A DNA stretch of 64,000 nt from Candidatus Omnitrophota bacterium (lineage in GTDB: Bacteria > Omnitrophota > Gorgyraeia > Zapsychrales > Fredricksoniimonadaceae), in contig CAIOPG010000008.1 of the NCBI GenBank assembly GCA_903860135.1, positions 64,127 to 128,126 of the forward strand, written 5' to 3'. The stretch's first letter is position 1. Each line of letters opens with the position of its first letter. The notes below the pieces were generated by a model, which was given only the letters and a program-made list of their open reading frames with translations, ran no database searches and was not told the origin of the DNA. Below, piece after piece: positions 2,835-6,190 of this stretch. The position numbers were made by a program, and so were the translations under genes.

Positions 2835-4097
2835 TTAAAGTTTATAAAGGGCAAGCCCTGACAGCGCCTTGGGATAAAAATAGGTGGTCTTGGGCGGCAT
2901 CTTCTCGCCATTCAAAGCGATCACGCGCAACTGGTCAATGCGCACCGGATTGAGGATAAAAGCCGCCTCGGCCTGGCCGTTATCCACCGCCGTGAAGCAG
3001 GCATCCATGTCCTTGTTGCAATACGTGATATCTTCGGACTTGATGTCCAGCTTGTCAAAGACAAAGGCCTTGAGGATCAACGAATCCAGGCAACGGTAAT
3101 CATCCGAACCTTCCTTGATGAACTCATTGATCTGGCTTTTGTTCTTCAGGCGCAGGAGCTGTATCCCTTTACGGGTATATAGCCCGAACGCATGCTCGTT
3201 GCGCCCCGCCTTGGCCAGCATGACCGCGAGGTCTTCCTTCTTCTTGATGCTGTCGATGCGAAAAAGCGTTTCCAGGAACCCGATGTCCCGAGGAAATGTT
3301 TTGATGATGCGATGGATGGGGAAAATCTGCAGTTCACGCGAATCGATATTCGTGAAATACGTCATCACATAATTCCAGGGCTCGTCGCCGGTGGCGTCGG
3401 GAGTCTTCTCGAGCATCAGCTCGCGGTAGCGCCGGGATACTTCATACCGGTGATGGCCGTCAGCGATAAAAAGGTTCTGATTCTCAAAAACATCAGCCAC
3501 CTGCCCGATCAGGTCCGGATCATCGAGGCGCCAAACCATGTTGCGCGTGCCGTCATCTTCGACCACATCCACAAACGGCTTGGTCATCGCCACCTTGCGC
3601 TGAAAGATCCCCTCAACCTTTTTCTGGCTATCGGAAAAACAGACAAAGATCGGGCTGCACGCCGCCTGGAGCGCTGTCCACAGCTTGAAGCGGTCTTCTT
3701 TGGCACCCGCGTGCGTTTTCTCATGCGGATGGATGCGCGTCTTTTCATTATCGATCTTCATGACCGCCAGGAACCCCATGCGGCTGTGGCGTTCACCGAC
3801 GATCTTGTATTCCTGGCGCGTATAATAAATGCACGGCTTCGCATCCTGGACCAGGACACCCGCCTTGAGCCATTTTTCAAACGTCTCGGCCGCCTTGGCG
3901 TAACGGGCATCATCTTCCCCGTGCCGGGCATCCGCCTTGGCGAGCATCACATGGATAAAATTAAAAGGACTGCGCTTCTTGAGGGCCGCTTCCTGTTCCG
4001 GGGATATCACATCATACGGCGGGCAAACGATCTTCGCCATGTCGCCGACTTTATCCGTGTTATACACAATACCATTAAAAGGTTTTATCACTGACAT
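2835..4097 (-). CDS. DUF1015 family protein
   Basis: N-terminus MSVIKPFNGIVYNTDKVGD...PPYDVISPEQ is typical of DUF1015. An AAGGAAGGAA SD lies 9 nt before the ATG at 4097; the track ORF starts 9 nt further upstream. Confidence 0.7.
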   Translation of the reverse strand: MSVIKPFNGIVYNTDKVGDMAKIVCPPYDVISPEQEAALKKRSPFNFIHVMLAKADARHGEDDARYAKAAETFEKWLKAGVLVQDAKPCIYYTRQEYKIVGERHSRMGFLAVMKIDNEKTRIHPHEKTHAGAKEDRFKLWTALQAACSPIFVCFSDSQKKVEGIFQRKVAMTKPFVDVVEDDGTRNMVWRLDDPDLIGQVADVFENQNLFIADGHHRYEVSRRYRELMLEKTPDATGDEPWNYVMTYFTNIDSRELQIFPIHRIIKTFPRDIGFLETLFRIDSIKKKEDLAVMLAKAGRNEHAFGLYTRKGIQLLRLKNKSQINEFIKEGSDDYRCLDSLILKAFVFDKLDIKSEDITYCNKDMDACFTAVDNGQAEAAFILNPVRIDQLRVIALNGEKMPPKTTYFYPKALSGLALYKL

Positions 4098-4106
4098 CCG
4101 CCGCAT

Positions 4107-4194
4107 TTCCTTCCTTGATTTTGATATTCAACCCCGTCAAACATCCATTTAGTATACAAAGAAAATCTGATTTGACAAGAAAAGGTTACACGAA
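4107..4194 (-). promoter_or_regulatory. sigma70-type promoter module (copy 1 of an ~88 bp duplicated element) driving the DUF1015 gene
   Basis: The minus strand reads TTGTCA-N16-TATACT (-35 at 4178..4173, -10 at 4156..4151), followed by AAGGAAGGAA. A near-identical copy lies at 5506..5593. Confidence 0.6.
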
Positions 4195-4466
4195 ACAGTG
4201 GGAACGAAACAGGTACAGGGAGAACGTAACTCTTATTGGTAAACCTCAGAACGTTTCGCGATCTTAGTCATGACGACAGGCCAAGTTCCTTTTCGATCCT
4301 GGCAGAAGGGATGCGGGGCGTTTTACGCGAAGCTTCTATCTCTTTCCAAAACTTTGGATCAGCGTATTCCATGGATTCAATCAGATCTTCCCAAACATTC
4401 TGAGGTAAAAGAACCCCTTTTGCCTGGCCTTTACTGTTGACCAGCCAGATTATTCTTGTGAGCGGG

Positions 4467-4820
4467 TTAACTTAACGGCAGGCCTAATAAATCGCGCAAC
4501 CTTGAATCTATTTCTTTCTGCATGGAAACACTAACATCTCCCAAAAAGCGCGCCGTGCTTGATTGTAACAGGCAAAAGATCTTATCTGTCTTGACCAAAG
4601 ATGCCACATGCAACCCGGTCCTGCTAAAATCAACATGCGTCGAAGAAATCAGGAGGTCAACTGACCGCGGCGAATCAATCACTGAACTAATGGCGATAAA
4701 TAGCGCGTCTTGACTTGTGCGATTGTATTGTTCAGAAGATATAACGAGGGCAGGACGAACTTTATTCCCAATCAAATCAGAAAAAGGATATTTAATCAGT
4801 ACAATATCCCCTTTCTTCAC
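4467..4820 (-). CDS. mazF: type II toxin MazF/PemK family endoribonuclease
   Basis: 117 aa, MKKGDIVLIKYPFSDLIGNKVRPALVIS matches the PemK/MazF N-terminal SH3-like barrel. There is a 4-nt overlap with the upstream ORF. Confidence 0.8.
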   Translation of the reverse strand: MKKGDIVLIKYPFSDLIGNKVRPALVISSEQYNRTSQDALFIAISSVIDSPRSVDLLISSTHVDFSRTGLHVASLVKTDKIFCLLQSSTARFLGDVSVSMQKEIDSRLRDLLGLPLS

Positions 4821-5053
4821 GACAAAGCCCTGCCATCTTCAAGCGTATAAATATCTTCAGCCGGATTGTCGAGGAATGAAAACATCCCTGTTTGAAAGGG
4901 AAGCCGCATTAATTCTTGGTCAGAAATTCCACCTTGAACTAAAGTCGGGGCAAAGACAAGGGTGCGATTAAAGAAAAAGGTCGCTTCAGCCGCGATCTCT
5001 GGTTTCTGATTTATTTTATAGCCAAGCGTCTCATGATCAATTGTTTGTGTCAT
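4817..5053 (-). CDS. hypothetical protein, candidate cognate antitoxin of MazF (non-canonical)
   Basis: 78 aa ORF translationally coupled to mazF (ATGA overlap). It has no AbrB/MazE or RHH signature. Confidence 0.4.
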   Translation of the reverse strand: MTQTIDHETLGYKINQKPEIAAEATFFFNRTLVFAPTLVQGGISDQELMRLPFQTGMFSFLDNPAEDIYTLEDGRALS

Positions 5054-5056
5054 CGC

Positions 5057-5455
5057 CTACACCCCCGATTGTGAAATTTGAAACCGTCTGGCGATGATGG
5101 GCTCGCTATCACATAATACTTCAAATCTATATTCACCGTAATCAGGAAAAGGAACATTGATCATTTCAAAATTAAATTCAACAATTTGCTTCGGGCTCTG
5201 AAAATTAATCTGCCCTTCCATCCCAAACAAATCAGTTTCTTTGCCTACTTGCAAACAGCGCAACCGCATCGTGTAGACCCCCGTGCCCTCTGTTAAGGAA
5301 AGAAATACATTTAAACGAGGATGCGCACAGGGCACCGTTGACGTTGTAATATTATTGAAAAGCCCCACAAGAGACTTCTTCCCCGTCGTCTTGTCGTCAA
5401 TAACAACATCACAAATCGCCATCACTAAAGCCATTGGCTTAGGTTTTTTAATCAT
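5057..5455 (-). CDS. hypothetical protein, first gene of the three-gene MazF module
   Basis: The first ATG gives MIKKPKPMALVMAICDVV... (about 133 aa). The track ORF is extended to a TTG at 5539 inside the promoter repeat. The stop lies 3 nt from the next gene. Confidence 0.4.
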   Translation of the reverse strand: MIKKPKPMALVMAICDVVIDDKTTGKKSLVGLFNNITTSTVPCAHPRLNVFLSLTEGTGVYTMRLRCLQVGKETDLFGMEGQINFQSPKQIVEFNFEMINVPFPDYGEYRFEVLCDSEPIIARRFQISQSGV

Positions 5456-5505
5456 ATGATGAGCACGCTCAGGATAATGGTCAAAAGAAACTTGGGGCGA
5501 AAATA

Positions 5506-5593
5506 CTTCCTTCTTGATTTTGATATTCAACCCTGTCAAACATCCATTTAGTATACAAAGAAAACCTGATTTGACAAGAAAAGGTTACACGAA
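5506..5593 (-). promoter_or_regulatory. sigma70-type promoter module (copy 2 of the ~88 bp duplicated element)
   Basis: Identical -35 TTGTCA (5577..5572), 16-nt spacer and -10 TATACT (5555..5550) as copy 1, with 2 substitutions plus a 1-bp indel across the element. Confidence 0.55.
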
Positions 5594-5611: not shown

Positions 5612-5944
5612 TCAACGCAAGCGCCGCGCGGCATAGGTGAAGGGCAAGAAATACTTCCGCCAGGAGGCATCGGTGGAACCAAACTCGTTTGAGCCCATAA
5701 AGAAATCAACAACCGCCTCGCGCACACGCGCCACTTCCTTAAGGCGCGGCAGGCCCGATACGCTGTCCAATGTCAGATCCAGAAGCTCCAGGGCCCTTTC
5801 CACGGCCCTGCGGCTGTAAGCGGGATTCTGCTTCACCTGCCAGTTGAGCGCGCGCTCCACCTCACTGCCGATATTGGCCATTTGCGCACACAGCGTCAAT
5901 TCCTTCCAACGCCCGGCAGCCAGATCCTTGTGCTGATAACTCAC
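5612..5944 (-). CDS. hypothetical helical protein
   Basis: 110 aa ORF with GC and codon usage like the host and no recognisable motif. Confidence 0.35.
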   Translation of the reverse strand: MSYQHKDLAAGRWKELTLCAQMANIGSEVERALNWQVKQNPAYSRRAVERALELLDLTLDSVSGLPRLKEVARVREAVVDFFMGSNEFGSTDASWRKYFLPFTYAARRLR

Positions 5945-6190
5945 GCTGTCACCCGCTGCATGACAAGACCCATGACAAAATCCCCAAACATCCCGGCCGC
6001 CATCTGGCGAAGTTCCACGCGGGAAATTGTATCCGTTATTATTTTCAATTTTTCCATCTCCCTGCCATTATTCAACCCCAAAAACCAGTGCTTACTATAA
6101 CGCCTGCCATAATCCGGGTCAATCTTGATCTTTTCCTCATGTTATGGGAAACTACCACCTTTTATTCACTTGGCAAAGATAATCAAGAAC

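What the first reader, a model, noticed from the sequence alone, without database searches (positions are those of the whole stretch)
4467..5455. Three-gene MazF module with a non-canonical antitoxin candidate and an extra upstream gene
mazF (4467-4820) is preceded by a 78-aa ORF (ATGA overlap) that lacks AbrB/MazE, RHH or Phd features. A third ~133-aa beta-rich ORF ends 3 nt before that ORF. The arrangement is reminiscent of tripartite toxin-antitoxin-chaperone or toxin-antitoxin-regulator systems. It may define a new antitoxin family for MazF.
Basis: partly seen in the sequence, partly recalled or inferred. Interest (0 to 1): 0.55.

Follow-up and report, generated by a model that had tools for sequence, protein, structure and literature searches.

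The report
Three-gene MazF toxin module with DUF6941
A real three-gene operon (a DUF6941 beta-sandwich protein, a 78-residue antitoxin that fits no curated family, and a MazF RNA-cutting toxin) recurs as a unit in at least 15 uncultured bacterial lineages, which makes it a previously undescribed three-part variant of an otherwise ordinary toxin-antitoxin system.

Summary
On the minus strand lie DUF6941 (5057-5455, 132 aa), a 78-aa ORF (4817-5053) and MazF/PemK (4467-4820). The first two are 3 nt apart. The last two share a GTGA overlap, not ATGA.

- **The 78-aa protein.** It matches no Pfam, NCBIfam, PADLOC, PHROG or PDB entry. Its last ~37 residues carry an invariant motif, F-x-F-x5-EDIY-x3-DG. 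I found that motif in 116 small ORFs from metagenomes. Eighty of the 112 with enough downstream sequence sit directly upstream of an intact MazF.
- **N-terminal variation.** In those relatives the N-terminal half is RelN/AF2212-like, Phd/YefM, DUF433 or unrecognised. Here it is a separate ~40-residue region with no detectable relation to the RelN-like type.
- **The triad.** DUF6941-antitoxin-MazF recurs in at least 15 distinct lineages, in different genomic contexts, with tight gene spacing. Two DUF6941 genes stand alone.
- **Swapped first gene.** In close relatives of this MazF, DUF6941 is replaced by one of two unrelated families of unknown function.
- **DUF6941 fold.** It models as a 10-strand beta-sandwich, neither SecB-like nor a recognisable DNA-binding fold.

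Most likely this is a type II MazF system in which the 78-aa tail neutralises the toxin and DUF6941 is an accessory partner. The accessory role is inferred, not shown. It is a new variant of a known kind and moderately interesting.

The parts
5513..5593 (-). Upstream copy of an 81-nt direct repeat. It carries a sigma-70-like promoter (TTGTCA-16-TATACT, 5577-5550) and an AAGGAAG Shine-Dalgarno sequence. It is a duplicate of the promoter/RBS region of the neighbouring DUF1015 gene.
   Evidence: 98% identical to 4114-4194. There are 2 matches in the window against 0 in shuffles. The promoter scan found it.
5456..5484 (-). Weak promoter-like site (TTGACC-17-CATCAT) that abuts the DUF6941 ATG. It sits where other triads have TTGAnA-N17-TATACT 6-9 nt before the start codon.
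   Evidence: Promoter scan, 9 of 12 matches. Upstream regions of L007, L015 and L142 were aligned.
5057..5455 (-). DUF6941 gene, 132 aa. It is the first gene of the operon and models as an all-beta 10-strand sandwich. Residues C15, D16, D21, K26, G31, F33, P42, T55, G107 and R123 are invariant across 11 relatives.
   Evidence: Pfam PF22091 at E 3.9e-20. AF2 model with pLDDT 86. Foldseek results. Alignment A8.
4817..5053 (-). 78-aa antitoxin candidate. It has an N-terminal ~40-residue region of unknown fold followed by the C-terminal tail.
   Evidence: No curated family hit. Homologues occupy the same position.
4820..4930 (-). Tail of the antitoxin, residues 42-78: SDQELMRLPFQTGMFSFLDNPAEDIYTLEDGRALS. 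F58, F60, E66, D67, Y69, D73 and G74 are invariant in all 104 aligned tail-bearing ORFs, and I68 in at least 90% of them. This is the inferred MazF-binding segment.
   Evidence: Alignments A3, A5 and A6. The same motif lies directly upstream of MazF in 80 of 112 metagenome loci.
4467..4820 (-). MazF/PemK-family toxin, 117 aa, GTG start within a GTGA overlap with the antitoxin stop. The RP motif (R22, P23) and a Ser/Thr at position 45 are conserved in the relatives aligned.
   Evidence: Pfam PF02452. PHROG 'MazF-like growth inhibitor' at E 1.6e-13. Alignment A2. Remote match to M. tuberculosis MazF6 at E 8e-4.
4268..4465 (-). Open frame without a start codon. It is followed by a 12-codon ORF that starts in an ATGA overlap (ATGACTAAG...). 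This may be the remnant of a second, decayed toxin-antitoxin pair. It lies inside the repeat-bounded segment.
   Evidence: Read from the sequence. No Pfam or plasmid match, so the remnant reading is unconfirmed.
4114..4194 (-). Downstream copy of the 81-nt direct repeat. This is the working promoter/RBS of the DUF1015 gene (ATG at 4106). Together with 5513-5593 it bounds a 1,399-bp unit that holds the whole module.

Best explanation
This is a three-gene type II toxin-antitoxin operon, DUF6941 -> 78-aa antitoxin -> MazF.

**Transcription and translation.** The three genes are read from one promoter region upstream of DUF6941. Translation is coupled through the 3-nt gap and the GTGA overlap.

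**Toxin.** MazF is an endoribonuclease that would stop growth when free. This is inferred from family membership.

**Antitoxin.** The 78-aa protein blocks MazF directly with its acidic, aromatic C-terminal tail (F58, F60, EDIY66-69, DG73-74). That tail is an evolutionary module that travels with this MazF clade, whatever N-terminal domain it is attached to.

**DUF6941.** In two-gene relatives the N-terminal half of the antitoxin is an AF2212/RelN-like, Phd/YefM or RHH-like domain. Here it is a short beta-prone region. I propose that this region docks on the DUF6941 beta-sandwich, which would then control the stability or availability of the antitoxin as a stabiliser or a trigger-sensing subunit.

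**What is shown and what is inferred.** Shown: gene order, coupling, family membership of MazF and DUF6941, conservation of the triad, and the tail-MazF association. Inferred: tail-MazF binding, any DUF6941-antitoxin contact, and every physiological role.

**My own estimates.** The 78-aa protein is the MazF antitoxin acting through its tail: about 0.85. DUF6941 is functionally coupled: about 0.55. The specific docking, stabiliser or sensor role: about 0.3.
For: **1. Anatomy.** The gap between DUF6941 and the antitoxin is 3 nt, and the antitoxin and MazF overlap by 4 nt. In eight triads the spacing ranges from -17 to +16 nt for the first junction, and is -4 nt at the second junction in six of them.

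**2. The triad recurs.**
- Complete triads: window, the L007/L016 group, L015, L020, L021, L124, L137, L142, L153, L154 and L155.
- A triad with a truncated MazF: L040.
- Contigs cut upstream that show only the DUF6941 C-terminus beside the antitoxin: L143, L145 and L053.
- Flanking genes differ from locus to locus: SecY and an NADH-dehydrogenase subunit, sulfite reductase and a PEP-CTERM protein, P5C reductase, Mla genes, and DUF1015 with accD.

**3. Correlated divergence.** Pairwise similarity of the three proteins is rank-correlated across triads, with Spearman 0.83-0.97. The pairs are not independent, so this is descriptive only.

**4. The tail goes with MazF.** Of these, 116 contain a tail ORF. 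Of the 112 with downstream room, 80 have an intact MazF immediately next to it, and several others have MazF remnants.

**5. N-termini vary in two-gene relatives.** Of 104 tail proteins, 68 match the N-terminal half of NCBIfam RelN, 6 match AF2212-like, 2 match Phd/YefM and 1 matches DUF433. No conserved upstream gene accompanies these.

**6. The literature model fits.** The antitoxin C-terminus and the toxin form one evolutionary module. In the MazE-MazF structure an aromatic residue (MazE Trp73) sits in a MazF pocket (PMC3879964).

**7. A promoter sits in front of DUF6941.** In other triads a promoter-like TTGAnA-N17-TATACT lies just before the DUF6941 start codon, and the short or overlapping junction with the antitoxin gene leaves no intergenic room for another one.

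**8. DUF6941 looks functional.** It has many invariant polar residues, which suggests a specific binding or active site rather than a spacer gene.
Against: - No experiment or complex model supports a DUF6941-antitoxin contact.
- Two DUF6941 genes, 51-52% identical to this one, stand alone. They are followed by a patatin-like lipoprotein (L018) and a PEP-CTERM-like protein (L019).
- The MazF closest to this one (L003, 66% identical by BLASTP) has an unrelated 233-aa first gene instead of DUF6941. The toxin and tail therefore do not need DUF6941 as such.
- The DUF6941 fold matches are generic beta-sandwiches with TM-scores of 0.47-0.60 to PDB entries.
- The single-sequence model of the 78-aa protein is poor, with pLDDT 55.
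Tail-MazF binding rests on genomic association and analogy.
- In this window the promoter-like site next to DUF6941 is degenerate, and a decayed gene pair may lie beside MazF. This particular copy could be decaying.
Confidence: 0.5

Rival explanations
1. This is an ordinary two-gene toxin-antitoxin pair riding behind an unrelated gene. DUF6941 has its own cellular job, and the antitoxin-MazF pair simply uses its promoter and translation signals, much as mazEF lies in one operon with unrelated genes in some Firmicutes (my own knowledge). The antitoxin N-terminal region would then be a minimal dimerisation or degron segment.
For: - DUF6941 genes occur alone in L018 and L019.
- A DUF6941 relative sits at the edge of an integrase-bearing element with no toxin-antitoxin pair visible, although that contig ends there.
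- The same antitoxin/MazF clade occurs behind two other unrelated first genes.
- In this window transcription appears to be borrowed from a duplicated neighbouring promoter.
Against: - At least 15 triads were found against 2 solo DUF6941 genes, in unrelated genomic contexts.
- Spacing is consistently tight or overlapping.
- Divergence of the three proteins is correlated.
- A tightly coupled conserved first gene appears in the loci whose antitoxins lack a recognised N-terminal domain, and not in the 2-gene relatives examined.
Confidence: 0.25
2. This is a regulator-antitoxin-toxin arrangement like omega-epsilon-zeta or PaaR-PaaA-ParE. DUF6941 would be the DNA-binding autorepressor that the short antitoxin lacks.
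For: - The first-gene position matches that of omega.
- The antitoxin has no recognisable DNA-binding domain.
- One weak Foldseek hit is to the DNA-bound glycosylase AlkC, with TM-score 0.49.
Against: - The all-beta sandwich shows no RHH, HTH or AbrB signature.
- There is no Pfam DNA-binding hit.
- The promoter in this window is a copy of a housekeeping gene's promoter rather than a dedicated operator.
- Solo DUF6941 genes exist.
Confidence: 0.08
3. This is a toxin-antitoxin-chaperone (TAC) analogue in the strict sense. DUF6941 would be a dedicated chaperone, without which the antitoxin aggregates or is degraded.
For: - The system has three genes.
- The antitoxin has a hydrophobic, beta-prone segment (residues ~24-38, ATFFFNRTLVFAPTL) that could be aggregation-prone.
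- The first gene is swappable.
Against: - DUF6941 is not SecB-like.
- TAC chaperone genes follow the toxin-antitoxin pair, and the chaperone-addiction segment lies at the antitoxin C-terminus (my own knowledge). Here the extra gene comes first and the antitoxin ends 4 residues after the tail motif.
Confidence: 0.12

Closest known systems
MazEF / PemIK (Kis-Kid) type II toxin-antitoxin systems
   Same: - The toxin is a PemK/MazF family member above the Pfam threshold.
- The small upstream gene overlaps the toxin gene by 4 nt.
- The acidic C-terminal tail with aromatic residues resembles in character the MazE C-terminus that occupies MazF site 1 (PMC3879964).
   Different: - The antitoxin has no AbrB/SpoVT, CopG/RHH, DUF3018 or winged-HTH domain.
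- Its tail has no significant sequence match to MazE, PemI or any PDB chain.
- A third conserved gene precedes the pair.
RelN-like / AF2212-like (DUF104, COG2880) antitoxins paired with MazF
   Same: They carry the same C-terminal motif, F-x-F-x5-EDIY-x3-DG, directly upstream of MazF.
   Different: - Their N-terminal ~45 residues form a RelN/AF2212-type domain. The window protein's N-terminus shows no relation to the RelN-like N-terminal region (hhalign probability 0.7%; no NF050107 or PF01954 hit).
- They are two-gene systems without a conserved upstream gene.
Toxin-antitoxin-chaperone systems (HigBA-SecB TAC, CmdTAC)
   Same: Three co-oriented genes, with an accessory protein that could govern the fate of the antitoxin.
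   Different: - The accessory protein is a DUF6941 beta-sandwich, not SecB-like.
- It is encoded first rather than last.
- There is no C-terminal extension beyond the toxin-binding tail.
- The toxin is MazF, not HigB or an ADP-ribosyltransferase.
omega-epsilon-zeta and PaaR-PaaA-ParE three-component systems
   Same: The antitoxin lacks a DNA-binding domain, and a separate gene in the operon could supply the missing function. As with omega, that gene comes first.
   Different: DUF6941 has no RHH or HTH signature, and the toxin family differs.

Membership tests
MazF/PemK toxin (PF02452) | Sequence match to the family profile above the curated threshold | tested here: met
   47.4 bits against a cut-off of 23.1, E 2.6e-12, covering profile positions 1-108 of 109. 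PHROG 'MazF-like growth inhibitor' at E 1.6e-13.
MazF/PemK toxin (PF02452) | Conserved catalytic-region residues (the Arg of the RP motif and a downstream Ser/Thr) | tested here: inconclusive
   R22 and P23 are invariant, and a Ser/Thr at position 45 is kept in the 7 relatives aligned. The mapping onto the catalytic residues of characterised MazF proteins rests on my own knowledge. Only a remote alignment to MazF6 was obtained.
MazF/PemK toxin (PF02452) | Endoribonuclease activity and growth arrest | not testable with these tools
   This needs expression and cleavage assays.
Type II toxin-antitoxin pair | A small antitoxin gene immediately upstream of the toxin gene, translationally coupled to it, and conserved as a pair | tested here: met
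   GTGA overlap. The same pairing with a -4 nt overlap occurs in 6 of 8 triads and in 80 metagenome loci.
MazE (AbrB/SpoVT-type, PF04014) antitoxin | N-terminal swapped-hairpin AbrB/SpoVT DNA-binding domain | tested here: not met
   No Pfam hit at E<=1. No significant PDB profile hit: the best was E 0.35 to prefoldin. A fold-level test was not possible because the model had pLDDT 55.
RelN family antitoxin (NCBIfam NF050107) | Match to the family profile | tested here: not met
   No hit at E<=10 for the window protein. hhalign of the N-terminal regions gave probability 0.7%. Two-gene relatives that carry the same tail match only profile positions 2-46, at 44-48 bits against a cut-off of 70.
AF2212-like (PF01954), Phd/YefM (PF02604), RHH antitoxins | Match to the family profile | tested here: not met
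   The window protein has no hit. Some other tail-bearing proteins do: 6 match AF2212-like and 2 match Phd/YefM.
DUF6941 (PF22091) | Match to the family profile above the curated threshold | tested here: met
   72.9 bits against a cut-off of 27, covering profile positions 2-124 of 125. The first genes of L124, L137 and L040 also pass.
Toxin-antitoxin-chaperone (TAC) | A SecB-like chaperone gene in the operon | tested here: not met
   There is no SecB Pfam hit. The model is a 10-strand beta-sandwich whose best PDB matches are UNC119, PDE-delta and the Wzt carbohydrate-binding domain.
Toxin-antitoxin-chaperone (TAC) | A chaperone-addiction extension at the antitoxin C-terminus | tested here: not met
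   The protein ends 4 residues after the conserved DG of the tail.
omega-epsilon-zeta-type three-component toxin-antitoxin system | The first gene encodes an RHH/HTH DNA-binding repressor | tested here: not met
   There is no DNA-binding family hit, and the fold is all-beta. DNA binding itself was not testable.

The most novel reading that the evidence does not exclude
The first gene may be an exchangeable specificity subunit of a MazF-based abortive-infection system. Three unrelated families can occupy that position:
- DUF6941;
- a 233/244-aa family (L003, L129, L144);
- a 124-128-aa family (L023, L101, L127).

Each would hold the antitoxin until a particular phage protein displaces or modifies it, which would free MazF.

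Several observations are consistent with this reading, and none proves it:
- The best structural matches of DUF6941 are uncharacterised phage proteins of the same size (TM-score 0.72-0.77).
- The closest MazF relative sits among Mrr, Fic and integrase genes.
- Four phage contigs encode stand-alone proteins that carry only the MazF-binding tail, with no MazF beside them. These would then be counter-defence antitoxin mimics.
Probability: 0.15. Interest if true: 0.8.

Novelty: new variant of a known kind. Interest (0 to 1): 0.55.

Why it matters
- **A role for DUF6941.** It would give a first functional context to DUF6941, a Pfam family that no paper in the searchable library mentions.
- **An unnamed antitoxin tail.** It defines a widespread MazF-associated antitoxin tail that current annotation does not name. 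A RefSeq plasmid calls such a protein 'hypothetical protein'.
[quoted passage not shown] That makes it a good system for asking what the non-neutralising half of an antitoxin is for: regulation, stability or sensing.
- **Possible link to phage defence.** If the first gene turns out to be a trigger sensor, the system would join the recent toxin-antitoxin-chaperone defence systems as a second route to three-part toxin-antitoxin immunity.

Tried and rejected
**Searches that found nothing for the 78-aa protein**
- The word-indexed homology search found only the protein itself. The exhaustive phmmer search was needed to find 18 small relatives. Three of its hits, long or repetitive proteins (P0026, P0031, P0041), were judged spurious; P0026 and P0041 were read, P0031 was set aside unread.
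- The PDB sequence profile searches of the antitoxin family, the tail alone and DUF6941 gave nothing significant.
- tblastn of the antitoxin against plasmids found no match.

**Ideas tested and dropped**
The result was not significant, so it is kept only as an analogy.
- The idea that the N-terminus is a diverged RelN/AF2212 domain failed (hhalign probability 0.7%).
- The idea that the 128-aa alternative first gene is a distant DUF6941 failed (hhalign probability 0.1%).
- The upstream 81-nt repeat is absent from the other triads, so it belongs to this genome and not to the module.

**Structure and fold work that was blocked or weak**
- The single-sequence AlphaFold2 model of the 78-aa protein was too poor to search with (pLDDT 55).

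**Other dead ends**
A hand-made degenerate DNA pattern replaced it.
- tblastn of DUF6941 against plasmids and phages found no match.
- The supposed Phd/YefM-like remnant downstream of mazF has no Pfam or plasmid match.
- PADLOC has no model for any of the three proteins.
Full report
**What is in the window**

Three co-oriented ORFs lie on the minus strand.
- The first runs from the ATG at 5455 to the TAG stop at 5059-5057 (132 aa). It matches Pfam DUF6941 (PF22091) at E 3.9e-20, above the curated cut-off.
- Three bases later (GCG), an ATG at 5053 opens a 78-aa ORF that ends at 4817.
- The TGA stop of that ORF overlaps a GTG start as GTGA. The GTG opens a 117-aa protein that matches PemK/MazF (PF02452) at E 2.6e-12 and the PHROG 'MazF-like growth inhibitor' family.

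The only slip is 'ATGA' for what is GTGA. The 78-aa protein has no hit in Pfam, NCBIfam, PADLOC or PHROGs.

**The 78-aa protein has relatives, and they show what matters in it**

A word-indexed search of 5.8 billion proteins found only the protein itself. An exhaustive phmmer search of 1.84 billion representatives found 18 small proteins of 75-107 aa. In the alignment the N-terminal ~40 residues are loosely conserved. They open with MTxTxD and are followed by a hydrophobic, strand-like stretch. The last ~37 residues carry a sharp motif, SDxE-h-h-x-L-P-x3-G-x-F-S-F-L-x4-E-D-I-Y-x3-D-G, in which E66, D67, I68, Y69, D73 and G74 are invariant.

I wrote that motif as a degenerate DNA pattern and scanned the metagenome collection. 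By my own arithmetic the pattern carries about 38 bits, so only a handful of chance matches are expected.
- 116 of the stretches contain a small ORF that matches the tail profile.
- Of the 112 with at least 150 nt downstream, 80 have an intact MazF gene directly adjacent, usually overlapping.
- Several of the rest have truncated or frameshifted MazF remnants.

The motif was searched without any reference to MazF, so this is a real association. The tail is a MazF-linked module.

**The tail sits on interchangeable N-terminal domains**

Of 104 distinct tail-bearing proteins:
- 68 match the N-terminal half (profile positions 2-46 of 79) of the NCBIfam RelN antitoxin model, at 44-48 bits in the two examples scanned individually, below the curated cut-off of 70;
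- 6 match AF2212-like (PF01954);
- 2 match Phd/YefM;
- 1 matches DUF433;
- 1 shows weak RHH-like hits.

No curated model covers the tail itself, and no PDB chain matches a tail-only profile. A tail-bearing protein on the RefSeq plasmid pAACI01 of Alicyclobacillus is annotated 'hypothetical protein', next to a gene named PemK/MazF.

[quoted passage not shown] It also fits the finding that an aromatic residue of the extended MazE C-terminus fills a pocket on MazF (PMC3879964).

The resemblance is therefore one of character, not of demonstrated homology. The N-terminal region of the window protein is not detectably related to the RelN-like N-terminal domain (hhalign probability 0.7%).

**The third gene belongs to the unit**

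Gene calls around homologues show DUF6941, then a ~74-88-aa antitoxin, then MazF, at these loci:
- the L007/L008/L009/L011/L016 group;
- L015, L020 and L021 from Omnitrophota genome bins;
- L124 and L137 from the motif scan, plus L040, where the MazF is truncated;
- L142, L153, L154 and L155;
- L143, L145 and L053, which are cut at the contig end but show the DUF6941 C-terminus beside the antitoxin.

That gives at least 15 distinct lineages, with DUF6941 identity to the window protein falling as low as 24%.

Flanking genes share no similarity between loci, apart from copies of the same genome. They are unrelated housekeeping genes, so the three genes move together. The gap between DUF6941 and the antitoxin ranges from -17 to +16 nt. 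The antitoxin-MazF junction is -4 nt in six of eight triads. Pairwise similarities of the three proteins are strongly rank-correlated (Spearman 0.83-0.97). The pairs are not independent, and shared species history would produce the same pattern, so this is descriptive only.

In L007, L015 and L142 a promoter-like TTGAnA-N17-TATACT lies 6-9 nt before the DUF6941 start codon. That suggests a near-leaderless transcript that begins with DUF6941.

**What argues for caution**

- Two DUF6941 genes, 51-52% identical to this one, have no toxin-antitoxin pair after them. L018 is followed by a patatin-like lipoprotein and L019 by a PEP-CTERM-like protein.
- The MazF closest to this one (P0003, 66% identical by BLASTP) is preceded by a 107-aa antitoxin. 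The tail of that antitoxin is 68% identical to the window tail. The first gene there is an unrelated 233-aa protein with a distant relative in L129 (BLASTP E 9e-6) and in L144.
- A third family of 124-128 aa occupies the same position in L023, L101 and L127.
- None of these alternative proteins has a Pfam or NCBIfam match, and the two searched against the PDB (L023, L129) have no match there either.
- In a rough neighbour-joining tree of MazF sequences, these loci nest among the DUF6941-linked ones.

The first gene has therefore been exchanged while the tail and toxin stayed. By contrast, the two-gene relatives whose antitoxins have recognisable N-terminal domains show no conserved upstream gene.

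**What DUF6941 looks like**

With an 11-sequence alignment, AlphaFold2 gives a confident all-beta model with mean pLDDT 86, pTM 0.78 and ten strands.
- Foldseek against the PDB finds only generic beta-sandwich matches: the lipid-binding proteins UNC119 and PDE-delta (TM-score ~0.47) and the Wzt carbohydrate-binding domain (TM-score ~0.60).
- Against predicted viral structures, the best matches are uncharacterised phage proteins of the same size (TM-score 0.72-0.77, for example from Anoxybacillus phage A403).
- A 28%-identical relative lies at the edge of an integrase-bearing viral contig.
- The fold is not SecB-like, and it shows no RHH, HTH or AbrB signature.
- The family has many invariant polar residues, including C15, D16, D21, K26, T55 and R123. 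That points to a specific site.

The single-sequence model of the 78-aa protein was too poor to use (pLDDT 55), and no structure jobs remained for a complex.

**Most likely mechanism**

MazF is the toxin, and the 78-aa protein is its direct antitoxin through the C-terminal tail. My confidence in that is about 0.85. It rests on gene order, coupling and the tail-MazF association.

DUF6941 is probably a functional third component rather than a bystander (about 0.55). My specific proposal is that the short beta-prone N-terminal region of the antitoxin docks on the DUF6941 sandwich, and that DUF6941 thereby controls antitoxin stability or release. That part is inference only (about 0.3).

The rivals are:
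- a two-gene pair riding behind an unrelated gene (0.25);
- a strict chaperone analogue (0.12);
- a DNA-binding regulator of the omega type (0.08).

**Local setting in this window**

The whole module lies in a 1,399-bp unit bounded by two 81-nt direct repeats that are 98% identical, at 4114-4194 and 5513-5593. Each copy carries TTGTCA-16-TATACT and an AAGGAAG ribosome-binding site. The downstream copy is the promoter and leader of the DUF1015 gene, whose ATG is at 4106. The repeat is absent from other triads, so it belongs to this genome. The pattern is what a single-crossover insertion or a local duplication would leave.

The site that corresponds to the module's own promoter is degenerate here (TTGACC-17-CATCAT). 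Between mazF and the downstream repeat lies an open frame without a start codon, followed by a 12-codon ORF in an ATGA overlap. This may be a decayed second pair, but it has no database support.

**Verdict**

This is a new three-gene variant of the MazF toxin-antitoxin kind. Its antitoxin combines a widespread but unnamed MazF-associated tail with an N-terminal region of its own. Its conserved first gene belongs to a family that no paper in the searchable library mentions. Interest is moderate, and rises if the exchangeable first gene proves to be a sensor.

Noticed in passing
window 4114-4194 and 5513-5593: An 81-nt direct repeat, 98% identical, bounds a 1,399-bp unit that holds the whole module. 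It is the promoter and RBS of the DUF1015 gene, duplicated in front of DUF6941, with the junction falling exactly between the RBS and the start codon. This looks like the scar of a single-crossover insertion or a local duplication. A Microcystis toxin-antitoxin module flanked by 152-bp direct repeats has been described (PMC7935541).
   Followed up: partly
window 4268-4465 (minus strand) and 4232-4270: An open frame with no start codon (…LPQNVWEDLIESMEYADPKFWKEIEASRK…) is followed by a 12-codon ORF in an ATGA overlap. By eye it looks like a decayed antitoxin/toxin pair next to mazF. It has no Pfam or plasmid match.
   Followed up: partly
window 5612-6081 (minus strand): A 46-aa ORF (5941-6081) overlaps a 110-aa ORF (5612-5944, GTG start) by 4 nt. 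This is another tightly coupled small pair of unknown function just upstream of the module. The 110-aa ORF has no hit in Pfam, NCBIfam, PADLOC, PHROGs or the PDB, and the 46-aa ORF, scanned against Pfam only, has none.
   Followed up: partly
L003 931-1632; L129 1463-2197; L144 3-236: An unannotated family of 233/244 aa takes the place of DUF6941 as the first gene upstream of tail-bearing antitoxins and MazF. L003 carries the closest relative of this window's MazF, and there the system sits among Mrr, Fic and integrase genes.
   Followed up: partly
L023 789-1175; L101 534-920; L127 732-1106 (possibly L146 2-97): A second unannotated family, of 124-128 aa, ends exactly where a 99-aa tail-bearing antitoxin begins, with MazF after it. 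It is unrelated to DUF6941 by hhalign.
   Followed up: partly
L149 2075-2236; L150 3609-3959; L151 4389-4508; L152 6636-6890 (viral contigs): Four phage contigs encode small proteins that end in the same MazF-associated tail, with no MazF gene beside them. They lie among small early-type ORFs. They could be phage-borne antitoxin mimics that disarm host MazF.
   Followed up: partly
L090 87-509; L025 4696-5094: These Phd/YefM-type antitoxins carry the tail motif twice in tandem (…FDFLKDPEEDIYTLADG…PSDPEEDIYTLADG…).
   Followed up: no
L094 3198-4415: A 405-aa ORF, rich in TPR-like repeats by eye, ends in the same tail motif and is followed by MazF. It is either a genuine fusion or an over-extended ORF call.
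   Followed up: no
L010 1316-2291: This is a deletion variant of the triad. DUF6941 is intact, but the antitoxin is reduced to its last 40 residues and MazF to its C-terminal 78 residues.
   Followed up: no
L007 ~2890-2934; L015 ~2960-3004; L142 ~140-181: In other triads a promoter-like TTGAnA-N17-TATACT lies only 6-9 nt before the DUF6941 start codon. That implies a leaderless or nearly leaderless operon transcript.
   Followed up: no
L020 877-954 and 4001-4078: A 78-nt direct repeat (83% identical) has its second copy starting 2 nt after the MazF stop codon. The first copy lies 2 kb upstream, beyond a SecY-like gene. Its nature is unknown.
   Followed up: no
L018 3001-4643: A solo DUF6941 gene overlaps the start of a 408-aa patatin-like lipoprotein gene by 4 nt. 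DUF6941 can therefore be coupled to partners other than a toxin-antitoxin pair.
   Followed up: no
L022-L141 (about 30 loci, e.g. L038, L069, L089, L121): About a quarter of the tail-bearing ORFs have no intact MazF beside them. They are orphan antitoxins or lie next to frameshifted or truncated MazF genes, as in L025, L048 and L074.
   Followed up: partly
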